The translations under genes were made by a program, and so were the position numbers. The notes beneath the pieces are model-generated. The model was not told the origin of the DNA. It saw nothing but the letters and a program-made list of their open reading frames with translations, and did no database searches. Of a stretch of DNA of 64,000 bases, positions 14,185 to 63,613 are shown one piece after another (the stretch's first letter is position 1; every line of letters starts with the position of its first letter). Origin of the DNA: a virus (lineage: Duplodnaviria > Caudoviricetes); the IMG/VR virus record IMGVR_UViG_3300037461_000646, positions 25,208 to 89,207 of that record; one strand, 5' to 3'.

Positions 14185-15030
14185 TCAAGTTTTCTTGATT
14201 GATTTTTTCTTGCGGCGAATGAGCTTTTTGGGCTTGGCCGGTGGTTCTTCTTCTGACAACCCTTCAAGCTCTACAATGGGGGGCTTTTGAATGACTATGC
14301 CATGCTGACCAAAAACAAACCCGCCATCATTTGAGTAAGTGTGTTCAAGTACCTCAAACCCCAATTCTTTGACAAGTTCGGTCATCTTCCATCTTGCAAT
14401 ACCTATACCCTTTTTAAATATTTCAGTCAAGGATTCTTTGGCAGAGAAGCCGGTTTCGTGCTTATTCTCAAGTTCGATGTCGGCTTCGTACTCTGAAAGA
14501 GTCTCCTTTCTCTTGCTTTTGACCAAACGAGAATAATAGATCACCGCAATGCCCCCCGGTTTGAGCACCCTGAAAATCTCTTTCAAGGCAAGCCGGGTGT
14601 ACTCTATTGAAGGGAAATGCAAAAACGTCACCCATGAGTAAATGAAATCACAATAGTCGTTTGGTTCAGGCAGATCACCGGCATGGCCTTCCATCAAAGA
14701 GGTGCCCACACCTATCTTCTTGTCCACAAAAGTGTCAAACACAAAAGAACCCTCTTTGTGAACATCAACCCCTTTTGAGTGACCAAAGTGCTTGCCAGCT
14801 TCGGCCACTTGAAAGCCGCTACCGTACCCAATGTCAAGACTGACCTTTTCTGACAGGTCAACCAGATATTTTTTGGCAAAGGGCAGAAACATTCGGTTGA
14901 AGGTCTTCTCTGATATGGCTTTGGCTTCATTGAAATCCTTGCCACCATCGAACAGGGTGAAAAATGCTTCTGGGCTTTTCACCCTGATCTCGTGAATGTA
15001 GTTAGCGTACTTTTCAATGAGTGCTTTCAT
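14185..15030 (-). CDS. Class I SAM-dependent methyltransferase
   Basis: SLDIGYGSG motif I; DFIYSWVTFLHF; IFRVLKPGGIAVI. Confidence 0.85.
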   Translation of the reverse strand: MKALIEKYANYIHEIRVKSPEAFFTLFDGGKDFNEAKAISEKTFNRMFLPFAKKYLVDLSEKVSLDIGYGSGFQVAEAGKHFGHSKGVDVHKEGSFVFDTFVDKKIGVGTSLMEGHAGDLPEPNDYCDFIYSWVTFLHFPSIEYTRLALKEIFRVLKPGGIAVIYYSRLVKSKRKETLSEYEADIELENKHETGFSAKESLTEIFKKGIGIARWKMTELVKELGFEVLEHTYSNDGGFVFGQHGIVIQKPPIVELEGLSEEEPPAKPKKLIRRKKKSIKKT

Positions 15031-15031
15031 T

Positions 15032-15757
15032 TTAAGTCTCCTTTTCCCATTCTAAGAACCATGCCTTGCTGCCTTTCTTTCTCAACTTGTGCTCAACTAT
15101 CCATCTTCTACCAAGATCGGCAATGGCATTTGGTTCATTTGGTTTGGCGTAAACCCCGAATCTCCATTTGTCTACAACCTTCATTATTTCTTCTGGGCCA
15201 CGGTGAAACTGTTTTTCGGGGTTTAGCTTCGTGTTGATGTGGGGTGCTGTCGATTCAATGAACGCTTTTTTTATGATTGAGGGGTGCCCACAAAACCCTA
15301 CCGACCTTTTCAAGCTTTCAGGGCACTCAAAGTACACCCCATTGTAAGGGAAGAATATATTCCAATTCTTCATTCTGTCAGATTCAGACCTGAATTGAGG
15401 TAGTCGCAAAAGGGCAAGGTCGGGTTCGTCATGAAGTATCCACAACATATCGGCCAGATTAATTCTTCTCAGAAGCTGCCAGTCATCTTCAAGATGCAAG
15501 ACATAGTGACTTTCGACATTCATCCACACCCACTTGAACGCTTCACTGAAGTTGGGGGTGGGCTGAATGCGGTAGCACACATCATCGAAAAACAGGTGGC
15601 AGACCTGAACACACAACATTGGGTCTTCATCAAGCCCTACTGGGTCTACATTGATGATAACTCGACACGGCAGAGTGCCCAAGAGGTTTGACTTGAAGCT
15701 CTCAAGGGTCTTCTTCAGTATCTGTGATCTTCTGGTGGCGGTGATGGTTATGTCCAT
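15032..15757 (-). CDS. GT-A fold glycosyltransferase (family 2-like)
   Basis: ITATRRSQILKKTLESF; YVLHLEDDW acidic motif; GFCGHPSI. Confidence 0.7.
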   Translation of the reverse strand: MDITITATRRSQILKKTLESFKSNLLGTLPCRVIINVDPVGLDEDPMLCVQVCHLFFDDVCYRIQPTPNFSEAFKWVWMNVESHYVLHLEDDWQLLRRINLADMLWILHDEPDLALLRLPQFRSESDRMKNWNIFFPYNGVYFECPESLKRSVGFCGHPSIIKKAFIESTAPHINTKLNPEKQFHRGPEEIMKVVDKWRFGVYAKPNEPNAIADLGRRWIVEHKLRKKGSKAWFLEWEKET

Positions 15758-16347
15758 TTCTTGAACACCAGTGCGTTGTCATAATAGGCTTTTATGCCCT
15801 TCTTACTCTTCCAATCTTCGATGTGTTGCTTGAACTCAAACTCTAAGCCTTGTTCACGGTAAAAATTGAATCGGGCAAACTTCTCACACCAGTATTCCGG
15901 GGGCTGACAATTGACATGACAAAGGCCCTCTTGCCCCGGCCTTGCAGCCGTAAAGAGTACGACATTCGACATGACACAGCAGTTTGAAACCAACGTGTCT
16001 GCATATTCCGGCTCGATGTGTTCGGCCACTTCAAGGCACATGCAGACATCGAATTTGGGTACACCCCATTCCAGAGGGCTTCTAAGGTCATGCAGATAAA
16101 TGGTTGCACCCAAGGCCATGTGGGTCAAACTGTTTTCTGACCCCTCAAAACCAACGGCAAATATTCGGCGCACTTGGCTAAAGTGGGCAATGAACTCGCC
16201 TATGGCACAGCCCAAGTCAACGATGGATTTGAAAGGCCCAAAGGTTTGCCAGATGGCATCACAAACGATTTCGGTTCTCCAATTCAATTTAGGTCGAAGA
16301 CGAAACCAACGCTCAGTGTAGACGTTGTTGAGTTTAATTCTTTCCAT
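15748..16347 (-). CDS. Class I SAM-dependent methyltransferase
   Basis: SIVDLGCAIG; FDVCMCLEVAEHI; VLFTAARPGQEG..HVNCQ. Confidence 0.85.
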   Translation of the reverse strand: MERIKLNNVYTERWFRLRPKLNWRTEIVCDAIWQTFGPFKSIVDLGCAIGEFIAHFSQVRRIFAVGFEGSENSLTHMALGATIYLHDLRSPLEWGVPKFDVCMCLEVAEHIEPEYADTLVSNCCVMSNVVLFTAARPGQEGLCHVNCQPPEYWCEKFARFNFYREQGLEFEFKQHIEDWKSKKGIKAYYDNALVFKKWT

Positions 16348-17467
16348 TGTCAGCCTCTAATTTGATTCGTCGGTGCAGTTCAACTACATCCACTTTGCCG
16401 ATTTCTTGTATGGTTTTGAACAAAAAACTCATCTTTGGTAGAACGACCGTCTTGCTGCCGTTTATCGATTCGTAATGGGCTGCTACGGCTTTTCTGTCTG
16501 GGGCTTCTTTCAAAGAGGTCTCCATTGCAGCCACAACCTGATTAGAATCTGAACTTCTGACCACCTTGCAGTATGGGTTATCGTAAACTTCTTTCTGATG
16601 GTATCGCGGGTTGGATATGATGATAGGGGTGCCACAACAGAGAGCTTCAAGCGGCCCACGATCATTTTGACCATGTTCGCCAAGATAAACAAATAATTTC
16701 GATTGGTTAAATATATCACAAAGCAAAGGTCGGCCTATCATACCCGGTAAAACTAAATCTAAGCCCTCAGATTCAACGATCTTGGGTATGAGGCTGGTTC
16801 TACCCCCCCTCAACGATCTACCCGGCATGACGGCCCTCAGATTTTGTTTTTTGGCCTGTTTATAACAAGTCAGAGCATCGATTGTTCGCCATTGGCCCTT
16901 TCGGTCATGAATATGTGAGGCCCCAACACAAATATCGTATAGTGGGGGTAATCCCTTCGGGCGAAAGATATTAGGGTTGATGGGCTTGTAAAACTTCACC
17001 CACAGTCTGCCGACTCGATCAATCTGACTGGTTTTTGCGTAATCATCCAAAATTACATGCCAGATGCCCCAACGCTGTCTGCCGGTGTTGGCCGCATACA
17101 GCAGCAGCCAATGGCCGTTTTTTCTAAGTTGCTCCAAATGAACAAACCACGATCTGAACCCGCCACGCACCCAGATAACATCATCGGGCCGTAGGAATTC
17201 ATGTACGCAGTCTATCAATGGAACAACAATACAGGGGATGCCCTCAATATAAGTTGAGCCGGGGCTTCGGTTGGACTCGATTATGATTAAAACCTCATCG
17301 AACACCTTTGTCTCTTTCAGCTTTTTGAGAAGCCAAAAGTAGCCCTCAGACCGAAGCCCACCGTCTTCAACCGCAAAGAAGTTCTTGGTTTCATCGGCTG
17401 GCGACCACCGCAGCGATTTATCAGGGGCGGCGGCACCATATTGGGTGTAGAAGAAGACTAACCGCAT
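16334..17467 (-). CDS. GT-B fold glycosyltransferase (GT4-like)
   Basis: HDRKGQW, IFNQSKLFVY...DRGPLEALCCGTPII C-terminal GT-B signature. Confidence 0.75.
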   Translation of the reverse strand: MRLVFFYTQYGAAAPDKSLRWSPADETKNFFAVEDGGLRSEGYFWLLKKLKETKVFDEVLIIIESNRSPGSTYIEGIPCIVVPLIDCVHEFLRPDDVIWVRGGFRSWFVHLEQLRKNGHWLLLYAANTGRQRWGIWHVILDDYAKTSQIDRVGRLWVKFYKPINPNIFRPKGLPPLYDICVGASHIHDRKGQWRTIDALTCYKQAKKQNLRAVMPGRSLRGGRTSLIPKIVESEGLDLVLPGMIGRPLLCDIFNQSKLFVYLGEHGQNDRGPLEALCCGTPIIISNPRYHQKEVYDNPYCKVVRSSDSNQVVAAMETSLKEAPDRKAVAAHYESINGSKTVVLPKMSFLFKTIQEIGKVDVVELHRRIKLEADNGKN

Positions 17468-63169: not shown

Positions 63170-63179
63170 TGGAGGCGAA

Positions 63180-63326
63180 ATGAAAAAATGGGGCATCGTT
63201 CTTATTTGTGCAGCTATTGGAGTACTTGTGGGCACAGCCTTTGAAAGCTTCTCACAAACAAGGGGCATGGGCATAGCGGCTGGGGTTGCCAGCAGCCTAA
63301 CTCTAATGTTTTTAGACAAAGACTGA
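63180..63326 (+). CDS. Small membrane protein
   Basis: GGAGG RBS; two hydrophobic segments. Confidence 0.55.
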   Translation: MKKWGIVLICAAIGVLVGTAFESFSQTRGMGIAAGVASSLTLMFLDKD

Positions 63327-63328
63327 GT

Positions 63329-63613
63329 ATGAGAACATCTTTAGAAAATCTACCCCCCGAACTGAAGAAAGTAGTCATCCAAAAGATCAGACATTGCATG
63401 AAGCACTGCCCCCATTCCGGCATAGAGGGTGTGAGCATCAAGTGCCCCTATGGTGAGAACCACTTCATGCTCTACCGATACTCTGCCTATATGGGCATGG
63501 AAATAGTTTCGTGCTATCAGTGCGGGTACAGGTACATCACCATGAAACAGAATGGGGAGTTTGTGCTTGTCAATCAACCTGAAAAGAAACAACTGGTGAT
63601 TAGAAAAAGATGA
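63329..63613 (+). CDS. Hypothetical zinc-binding protein with KKQLVIRKR tail
   Basis: CPHS...CPY...CYQC; coupled on both sides. Confidence 0.65.
   Translation: MRTSLENLPPELKKVVIQKIRHCMKHCPHSGIEGVSIKCPYGENHFMLYRYSAYMGMEIVSCYQCGYRYITMKQNGEFVLVNQPEKKQLVIRKR

What the first reader, a model, noticed from the sequence alone, without database searches (positions are those of the whole stretch)
14209..63610. Shared terminal short linear motif KKxL[VI][VI]RK in seven unrelated proteins
Seen: methyltransferase C-end PKKLIRRKKK (~14209-14229); 36101 ORF C-end TKKLLVQRK; portal C-end KKKPLVVRKKK; terminase large N-end KKQLVVRKPK; 43767 ORF N-end MKKRLIIRK; 61438 ORF C-end KKKLIIRKPKKQLVIRKR (two copies); 63329 ORF C-end KKQLVIRKR. 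It always sits at a low-complexity terminus, occurs in genes on both strands and in different modules, and varies synonymously between copies. Inference: a common docking or targeting tag, for example recruitment to a phage assembly/replication site, binding of one hub protein, a modification site or a degron. I know no described phage signal of this form.
Basis: partly seen in the sequence, partly recalled or inferred. Interest (0 to 1): 0.86.

Follow-up and report, generated by a model that had tools for sequence, protein, structure and literature searches.

The report
Shared basic tag on phage proteins
About ten unrelated proteins of this uncultured 89-kb phage, chiefly its DNA-packaging proteins, carry the same short lysine/arginine-plus-leucine peptide on a floppy end, and related phages keep it in their own spelling, so it is very probably an address label for one shared partner that is still unidentified.

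Summary
The strict motif occurs 8 times in the complete 89,207-bp genome, against 0.03-0.04 expected. It appears only in coding frames and always within 30 residues of a protein end. Codons differ synonymously between copies, and the carriers share nothing but the tag. A relative with 71% TerL identity keeps it on TerL, portal, the small protein after the capsid gene, and the 94-aa and 121-aa early proteins. One small protein family has it at the N-end in one genome and the C-end in another.

The tag is not private to this phage. About a third of 101 TerL homologues start with a [LIM]-x-x-R-[KR] tag, about a fifth of 120 portals end with one, and nearly all homologues of the methyltransferase carry one. 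Each lineage has its own spelling, shared across its carriers (permutation p < 1/3000). In one distant relative the carriers include gp32-like SSB, UvsX-like and UvsY-like proteins.

I read it as a tethered docking peptide linking DNA packaging, recombination and virion-modifying enzymes to one partner. The partner is not identified. Plain DNA or membrane affinity and host chaperone/protease recognition remain live rivals. Unchecked notes from this scan describe analogous acidic shared tails in other phages.

The parts
43763..43786 (-). Tag KKQLVVRK in the N-terminal tail of the large terminase (gene 41888-43840)
   Evidence: The AF2 model has pLDDT below 50 for residues 1-34. Homologues begin M-KKQLVIRK and similar.
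39762..39785 (-). Tag KKPLVVRK in the C-terminal tail of the lambda-type portal (gene 39735-41405)
   Evidence: PF05136. Kept in L002, L030 and L060, and in 22 of 120 homologues against 0.6 expected.
36122..36145 (-). Tag KKLLVQRK at the C-end of the 113-aa protein just after the capsid gene, the position of lambda gpFI (gene 36101-36442)
   Evidence: Orthologues carry one or two tags in the lineage's own spelling.
43923..43946 (-). Tag KKRLIIRK at the N-end of a 60-aa ORF (43767-43949) upstream of TerL
   Evidence: Similar small proteins (similarity read by eye, not aligned or scored) carry two N-terminal copies in L060 and three C-terminal copies in L057. One has a weak KOW match.
43955..43981 (-). 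Weak tag KKILALRGK at the C-end of the putative small terminase (gene 43946-44599). The name rests on gene position only.
   Evidence: Alignment A2: tag-bearing tails are appended after a conserved YYxxM in tag-positive lineages and absent in tag-less ones. No Pfam, PHROG or PDB fold match.
14209..14229 (-). Tag KKLIRRK in the C-terminal tail of a class I SAM methyltransferase (gene 14185-15030) in the glycosyltransferase cluster
   Evidence: Most of the 38 homologues (36-78% identity) end in [KR]-[LIF]-[IVF]-x-R-K-K-type tags after the conserved GQHGIV end of the domain, read by eye.
61741..61791 (+). Two tandem tags (KKKLIIRK, then P, then KKQLVIRK) at the C-end of a Cys-rich 121-aa early ORF (61438-61803), just upstream of an SNF2/ResIII helicase
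   Evidence: The orthologous frame in L057 also ends in two copies.
63584..63607 (+). Tag KKQLVIRK at the C-end of a 94-aa ORF (63329-63613) just downstream of the helicase
   Evidence: The orthologue in L057 ends RKQLVIRR-KT.

Best explanation
The motif is a modular docking peptive of the short-linear-motif kind. It has a basic-hydrophobic core, [KR][KR]-x-[LIM]-[VI]-x-R-[KR], and sits at the far tip of a disordered tether at either end of a protein.

Its core carriers are the DNA-packaging proteins: TerL at the N-end, and portal, the putative small terminase and the gpFI-position protein at the C-end. Each lineage has also added it to its own set of DNA-recombination or replication proteins and to a virion-cluster methyltransferase.

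I infer that all copies in a genome bind the same site on one shared protein partner, probably phage-encoded and part of the packaging/recombination machinery. Candidates are TerL, the portal vertex or procapsid, or the acidic gp32-like SSB. The tag would then concentrate these proteins where DNA is processed and packaged.

Shown here: selection on the peptide, its modularity, its family-wide spread and its concerted spelling. Inferred: that it binds a protein, and which one.
For: - **Enrichment and placement.** The tag is about 200-fold enriched and found only near protein ends. It occurs only in coding frames, with synonymous codon variation.
- **Disorder.** The TerL tail has pLDDT below 50.
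- **Retention at 71% TerL identity.** The GCA_025490955.1 contig keeps the tag on five orthologues while the flanks diverge.
- **Terminus switching and tandem copies.** One small protein family carries it at different ends in different genomes, in two or three copies.
- **Family-wide spread.** 35 of 101 TerL N-tails carry it against 6 expected, starting at residue 1-5. 22 of 120 portal C-tails carry it against 0.6 expected. Nearly all methyltransferase homologues carry it.
- **Lineage spelling shared across carriers.** LV[VI]RK here, KLVRR on nine proteins of G1, M-I-[KR]-R in all six copies of L058, and LIRR in L059.
- **Permutation tests.** Automated test: 17.8 against 15.4 +/- 0.4, p < 1/3000. 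Hand-registered test: p = 1e-4 on five lineages.
- **G1 carriers.** They include gp32-like SSB, RecA/UvsX-like and UvsY-like proteins, which mutually interact in T4 (own knowledge).
- **Carriers that are not DNA-binding.** The methyltransferase and a tail-chaperone-position protein in G1 argue against a pure DNA-affinity tail.
Against: - No receptor was identified.
- The hydrophobic position tolerates L, I, M, V and F, and flanking positions swap between hydrophobic and basic. In one close relative (L060) L, I and M coexist in one genome. This looks more like loose physico-chemical selection than a tight pocket.
- Tag-less relatives have plain polybasic ends at some of the same positions, as expected for binding to a polyanion.
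- The concerted spelling rests on few independent lineages. It could partly reflect common descent, joint presence or absence, or copying of tag cassettes between genes. Two copies here differ at 1 of 24 bases.
Confidence: 0.45

Rival explanations
1. Polyanion-affinity tail. The tag is a generic cationic anchor with a small hydrophobic knob. It holds proteins on DNA or ssDNA, possibly as a beta-ribbon in a groove or as pairs of tags zipped on DNA, or on the anionic inner membrane. No dedicated protein receptor is involved.
For: Most carriers handle DNA: TerL, putative TerS, portal, HNH, SSB, UvsX- and UvsY-like proteins and the protein I call RuvC-like from its N-terminal sequence alone. Tag-less relatives have plain polybasic ends at the same places. 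The hydrophobic positions are degenerate, including Phe in methyltransferase homologues. Tandem repeats resemble AT-hook or SPKK arrays. No non-carrier receptor emerged.
Against: Leu/Ile/Met and the Arg three residues later are conserved far beyond composition. Spelling changes in concert within genomes. The methyltransferase and a tail-region protein carry it, while the polymerase, helicase, clamp loader, FEN and Mre11/Rad50 never do. Clade C tags have only one hydrophobic residue, which makes a poor membrane anchor.
Confidence: 0.3
2. Host quality-control recognition. The tag is read by a host chaperone or unfoldase, such as DnaK or the ClpX N-domain or pore. It serves as a recruitment signal for remodelling or as a degron that times the removal of unassembled packaging and recombination proteins.
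For: The form matches the DnaK preference (own knowledge) for a Leu-rich core flanked by basic residues. Extreme C-terminal L-x-R-R-K-K ends in clade C resemble the ClpX signal of MuA. N-terminal x-K-L-V-x-R ends resemble the Dps and lambda O N-terminal signals, and the L-V-V-R-K composition resembles the SspB tail. All of these are resemblances from memory. Different hosts would explain the lineage spellings.
Against: The orientation is the same at N- and C-ends, and the tag is often several residues from the end, unlike pore-engaged degrons. The host is unknown, so nothing could be tested. A degron on a structural protein such as the portal, and on nearly every homologue of an enzyme, is hard to rationalise. 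Conserved host machines would not demand concerted spelling changes between closely related phages.
Confidence: 0.12
3. Client motif of the phage's own sliding clamp (genome 7709-8758), analogous to the T4 gp45-binding peptides. It would tie recombination, nuclease and packaging proteins to clamps loaded on DNA.
For: The phage encodes a divergent beta-clamp and a clamp loader. In this clade the tag reads Q-L-V-I, like the start of bacterial clamp-binding motifs such as QLVLGL of Pol IV (own knowledge). Terminal, tethered, basic-flanked motifs on many unrelated proteins are typical of clamp clients. A fast-evolving phage clamp (27% identity between this genome and G1) would explain lineage spellings.
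Against: The polymerase, FEN and clamp loader lack the tag. The last hydrophobic anchor of clamp motifs is replaced by R/K, and in other clades the second anchor is basic too. A tag-less relative (G2) has the clamp. Portal, the gpFI-position protein and the methyltransferase are unlikely clamp clients.
Confidence: 0.06
4. No peptide function. The pattern is a by-product of Lys-rich low-complexity ends, or of a nucleic-acid signal such as an A-rich ribosome-binding or coupling region near gene junctions.
For: Every copy lies within about 40 nt of a start codon of its own or the next gene, and AGA-AAG and AGG-AAA codons look like Shine-Dalgarno sequences.
Against: Shuffling only the Lys-rich ends gives 0.03 hits against 8 observed. 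Leu uses CTG, CTC, CTT, TTG and TTA, and Arg uses AGA, AGG, CGC, CGT and CGG, while the residues stay. The same peptide occurs after start codons and before stop codons. It is conserved over hundreds of homologues.
Confidence: 0.02

Closest known systems
T4/RB69 gp45 sliding-clamp client peptides (C-ends of polymerase, gp33, gp55) and bacterial beta-clamp-binding motifs (QL[SD]LF)
   Same: One short peptide on flexible ends of several unrelated phage proteins, read by one hub. It works at either terminus in the cellular versions. The Q-L-V-I start in this clade resembles QLxLxL.
   Different: This tag is strongly basic and lacks the terminal aromatic or aliphatic anchor. It is absent from the polymerase and is centred on packaging proteins. 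Binding to the phage clamp was not tested.
Acidic C-terminal tails of T7 gp2.5 (SSB) and gp4 (helicase-primase), read by gp5 polymerase; E. coli SSB C-terminal DDDIPF tip
   Same: A shared terminal docking tail that organises DNA-processing proteins around one partner. In relative G1 the SSB itself carries the tag.
   Different: The charge is opposite, basic rather than acidic. The tag occurs at N- as well as C-ends and extends to terminase, portal and a methyltransferase.
Terminase tails of phage P22: C-terminal basic tail of TerL gp2 (residues 483-499) and the disordered C-terminal region of TerS gp3 that associates with TerL (PMC11728703); lambda Nu1 C-end with gpA N-end (own knowledge)
   Same: Disordered, basic terminal tails on both terminase subunits that mediate assembly of the packaging motor. 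Here too the putative TerS carries the tag at its C-end and TerL at one end.
   Different: In P22 and lambda the tails are not one shared sequence motif and are not found on portal, the gpFI-position protein, recombination proteins or enzymes. Here the TerL tail is N-terminal.
ClpX recognition signals (MuA C-end RRKKAI, lambda O and Dps N-ends, SspB tail LRVVK) and the DnaK binding motif
   Same: Basic-plus-Leu/Val peptides on accessible ends, several of them on phage proteins. All of this comes from memory.
   Different: Nothing was tested and the host is unknown. This tag keeps one orientation at both ends and is often not at the very terminus.
T4 capsid-targeting sequence of internal proteins
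   Same: A shared terminal peptide acting as an address label in head assembly.
   Different: The CTS is N-terminal only, is cleaved by the head protease and marks proteins packed into the head. Here the carriers include terminase and enzymes, and most tags are C-terminal.

Membership tests
Bacterial/phage sliding-clamp client motif | Consensus with two hydrophobic anchors (Q-L-x-L-[FL] or x-L-D-F-L-F) | tested here: not met
   Only Q-L-V-I matches in this clade. The last anchor is R/K, and in clades G1 and C the fourth position is basic as well.
Bacterial/phage sliding-clamp client motif | Present on the replicative polymerase and other classical clients such as FEN | tested here: not met
   The PolA-UDG fusion, FEN-like protein and clamp loader lack the tag here and in G1.
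Bacterial/phage sliding-clamp client motif | Binds the hydrophobic pocket of the clamp | not tested
Short linear docking motif (SLiM) in general | Lies in a disordered region, is position-independent, and is conserved while the flanks diverge | tested here: met
   pLDDT below 50 in the TerL tail. N-end to C-end switch in one small protein family. Orthologue comparison.
SLiM read by one shared partner | Spelling changes in concert across the carriers of a genome | tested here: met
   Permutation tests, and the all-Met variant in L058. Caveats: few independent lineages, and mixed L/I/M in L060.
SLiM read by one shared partner | A physical partner is identified | not testable with these tools
   This needs a pull-down or a systematic complex screen.
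T4-type capsid-targeting sequence | N-terminal, followed by a head-protease site, on proteins packed into the head | tested here: not met
   Most tags are C-terminal, and the carriers include TerL, a methyltransferase and recombination proteins.
ClpX / DnaK recognition signals | Binding to or degradation by the host machine | not testable with these tools
   The host is unknown. Relatives are binned with many phyla.
Membrane-targeting amphipathic helix (MinD/FtsA type) | An amphipathic helix of about 8-12 residues with several hydrophobic positions | tested here: inconclusive
   The core has three adjacent hydrophobic residues here and only one in clade C. Methyltransferase tags have a second conserved Ile 7-8 residues later. 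No lipid test is possible with these tools.

The most novel reading that the evidence does not exclude
A large, uncultured family of lambda-headed phages uses one co-evolving basic address code, read by a single phage-encoded receptor. The code would physically couple T4-type recombination (gp32-, UvsX- and UvsY-like proteins), nucleases, the terminase-portal motor and a virion-modifying methyltransferase into one packaging factory. New proteins would join simply by acquiring the 8-residue tag at either end.
Probability: 0.3. Interest if true: 0.85.

Novelty: new variant of a known kind. Interest (0 to 1): 0.7.

Why it matters
Shared docking tails are known for clamps and SSBs. A basic tag shared by terminase, portal, a gpFI-position protein, recombination proteins and an enzyme has not, to my knowledge, been described.

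If one reader protein exists, the tag gives a direct handle on how DNA packaging is coupled to recombination and virion modification in phages that cannot be cultured. A synthetic peptide could serve as bait.

The tag also gives a simple sequence rule for predicting which orphan phage proteins belong to that network. It shows too that current gene calls cut the tag off TerL.

Tried and rejected
- **Complex prediction.** TerL (residues 36-650, alignment A1) with the last 40 residues of the 121-aa ORF gave no verdict. I do not use it for or against binding.
- **Known phages.** Megablast of the head region against deposited phages found no match.
- **RNA families.** Rfam over the whole window found nothing, so there is no support for a packaging-RNA partner. 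The 2.4-kb ORF-free region is only patchily conserved in L030.
- **Clamp profiling.** A PF00712 search in five related records found nothing, but it also missed the clamp that tblastn finds in G1 and G2, so it is uninformative.
- **Putative small terminase.** The AF2 model (mean pLDDT 66) and a Foldseek PDB search gave no match. The name rests on gene position only.
- **Host inference.** Relatives are binned with Thermotogota, Ignavibacteria, Desulfobacterales, archaea and others, so this is uninformative.
- **Met variant.** A second, independent Leu-to-Met switch (L060) turned out to be mixed L/I/M, which weakens a strict pocket argument.
- **Literature.** Two full-text searches found no description of such a tag.
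- **Acidic partner tail.** Only the putative TerS N-end is strongly acidic, and that feature is not conserved in G1.
- **Rejected outright.** A chance origin and a DNA- or RNA-level signal.
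Full report
**Setting.** The window is the last 64 kb of a single 89,207-bp contig with a 127-bp terminal overlap, so this is a complete phage genome. It has a lambda-type head module. In order, this holds a putative small terminase, a 60-aa ORF, TerL, a DUF1353 protein, a lambda-family portal, a head protease, a D-like protein, an E-type capsid protein and a 113-aa protein at the position of gpFI. The replication/recombination module holds a DnaB-like helicase, a beta-clamp, a PolA-UDG fusion, a clamp loader, a gp32-like SSB and a RecA-like protein. 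No deposited phage is close.

- Over the whole genome the strict pattern hits only coding frames.
- Outside the window there are further carriers: an HNH endonuclease (N-end), an ATPase (C-end) and, more weakly, the RecA-like protein (N-end) and the putative small terminase (C-end).
- In 2000 shuffles of whole proteins, or of the 30-residue ends alone, the expected count is 0.03-0.04 with a maximum of 2, against 8 observed. All 8 lie in the terminal 30 residues, which make up a quarter of the proteome.
- The copies use different Leu and Arg codon families.
- The carriers share no similarity outside the tag.
- The TerL tail is predicted disordered.

So the motif is a selected peptide feature, neither chance nor a nucleic-acid signal.

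**Do relatives keep it?** Close relatives (TerL 86-88% identical) keep it on the small ORF, TerL and portal. I walked along an 89,290-bp contig of GCA_025490955.1 (TerL 71% identical) to test the other carriers.
- The tag is kept on TerL, portal, the gpFI-position protein and the 94-aa protein.
- It is also kept on the orthologue of the 121-aa protein, again in two copies, in a frame the gene caller missed.
- The flanking tail residues and synonymous sites have diverged.
- A 72-aa protein there looks related by eye to the window's 60-aa ORF and carries three copies at its C-end, whereas the window's protein carries one at its N-end. A third relative carries two at the N-end.

A tag that moves between termini and multiplies is what a modular docking peptide looks like.

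**How far does it reach?**
- Among 101 TerL homologues (50-88% identity) with a recognisable tail, 35 carry a [LIM]-x-x-R-[KRT] tag against 6 expected. It almost always starts at residue 1-5.
- Among 120 portal homologues, 22 end with one against 0.6 expected, and more have near-variants.
- Most of the 38 homologues of the methyltransferase (down to 36% identity) have such a tag after the conserved end of the catalytic domain, read by eye.
- The gpFI-position protein always has a basic C-tail, with one or two tags in tag-positive lineages.
- The putative small terminase gains a tagged tail after a conserved YYxxM in the same lineages.

**Concerted spelling.** Each lineage has its own version of the tag.

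| Lineage | Spelling | Where |
|---|---|---|
| This clade | L-V-[VI]-R-K | all carriers listed above |
| G1 (67-kb record) | K-L-V-R-R | nine termini |
| Third clade (clade C) | L-x-R-R-K-K | extreme C-ends |
| L059 | K-L-I-R-R | packaging proteins |
| L058 | M-I-[KR]-R | all six copies |

The nine G1 carriers are the gp32-like SSB, a RecA-like protein, a UvsY-like protein (PF11056), a protein I read as RuvC-like from its N-terminal sequence alone (no family match), a tail-region protein, the gpFI-position protein, portal, TerL and the putative TerS.

Permuting genomes within each protein column shows that tails of different proteins are more alike within a genome than between genomes. The automated best-6-mer score was 17.8 against 15.4 +/- 0.4, with none of 3000 permutations reaching it. 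With hand-registered cores on five lineages, p = 1e-4.

There are caveats. The independent lineages are few, and joint presence or absence contributes to the score. One close relative (L060) mixes L, I and M at the key position. A relative with the same gene set, including the clamp (G2), has no tag and only plain polybasic ends on some of the same proteins.

**What it most likely does.** The tag behaves as a tethered docking peptide. Its core carriers all act at the portal vertex during DNA packaging. The lineage-specific carriers are mostly recombination or nuclease proteins of the kind that accompany packaging in T4, where gp17 binds gp32 and endonuclease VII binds the portal (own knowledge). 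The nearly universal carrier outside DNA metabolism is a methyltransferase in the virion glycosylation cluster.

I therefore favour a shared protein partner in the packaging/assembly machinery, at a confidence of 0.45. The candidates are TerL, the portal or procapsid, and the acidic gp32-like SSB. Basic and disordered terminase tails that mediate motor assembly are known in P22 (PMC11728703).

The main rival is generic polyanion binding to DNA or membrane (0.3). It fits the degenerate chemistry and the polybasic ends of tag-less relatives. It does not fit the conserved Leu and Arg, the concerted spelling or the non-DNA carriers. Host chaperone or ClpX recognition (0.12) and a phage-clamp client motif (0.06) remain possible. 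The clamp idea suffers because the polymerase and FEN lack the tag and the motif lacks the second anchor.

The one complex-prediction job gave no verdict and is not used.

**Novelty.** Shared docking tails are a known kind: T4 clamp clients, T7 acidic tails and the SSB tip. A basic tag that unites terminase, portal, a gpFI-position protein, recombination proteins and an enzyme, and that varies by lineage, was not found in two full-text searches. Earlier unchecked notes of this scan describe analogous acidic tails linking replication and packaging in other phages. If those hold, such address codes would be a general phage habit, with this one a basic variant.

Noticed in passing
window 41888-43840 (-): The collection's own gene call for TerL (P0001, 585 aa) starts 65 residues downstream of the first ATG and so cuts off the tagged tail. 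In relatives TerL starts directly at the tag. In L001 that start is a TTG overlapping the stop of the upstream small ORF, with a GAGG six bases upstream.
   Followed up: partly
genome C1:5802-7546 (L028), outside the window: The HNH endonuclease gene sits inside the 3' end of a radical-SAM gene. Its C-end repeats the native radical-SAM C-end (RRY[RK]T[LI]G...), and the relative L057 has the uninterrupted gene followed by the clamp. This looks like a homing-endonuclease insertion that nevertheless carries the tag at its N-end.
   Followed up: partly
L040:7931-9040 (relative G1): The beta-clamp homologue of relative G1 ends in ...EDDDIPF, the canonical bacterial SSB C-terminal tip. In the same genome the gp32-like SSB ends in the basic tag instead of an acidic tail.
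   Followed up: no
window 49458-51826: A 2.4-kb ORF-free, 34% GC region lies between the divergent late and early gene blocks. A gene-free stretch of similar size exists in L030 (1765-4277) with only patchy similarity of about 71%. There is no Rfam match. It could be an origin/promoter region or a non-coding RNA.
   Followed up: partly
genome C1:13142-14515 (L028): The gp32-like SSB has two long acidic Pro/Glu-rich linkers, each followed by a repeated domain of about 40 residues, and a C-terminal Cys-rich module. Its net charge is -26. It is a candidate acidic hub for the basic tag.
   Followed up: no
genome C1:17858-18664 (L028): The phage encodes a caspase-family (Peptidase_C14) protein (E = 5e-24) in the replication/recombination block. 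It has no homologue in relatives G1 and G2.
   Followed up: no
window 32213-37844 and related loci: The capsid, head-closure and tail-tube proteins end in poly-Thr/Ser runs here and in L030, L058, L059, G1 and L031. All of these genomes also have the basic tag. Tag-positive clade C and tag-less G2 lack the poly-Thr ends.
   Followed up: partly
window 55440-56027 (+): An early 195-aa protein is extremely acidic (pI 4.2, net charge -24) and is conserved in L057. It has no family match. It may be a DNA mimic, or a conceivable partner for basic tails.
   Followed up: no
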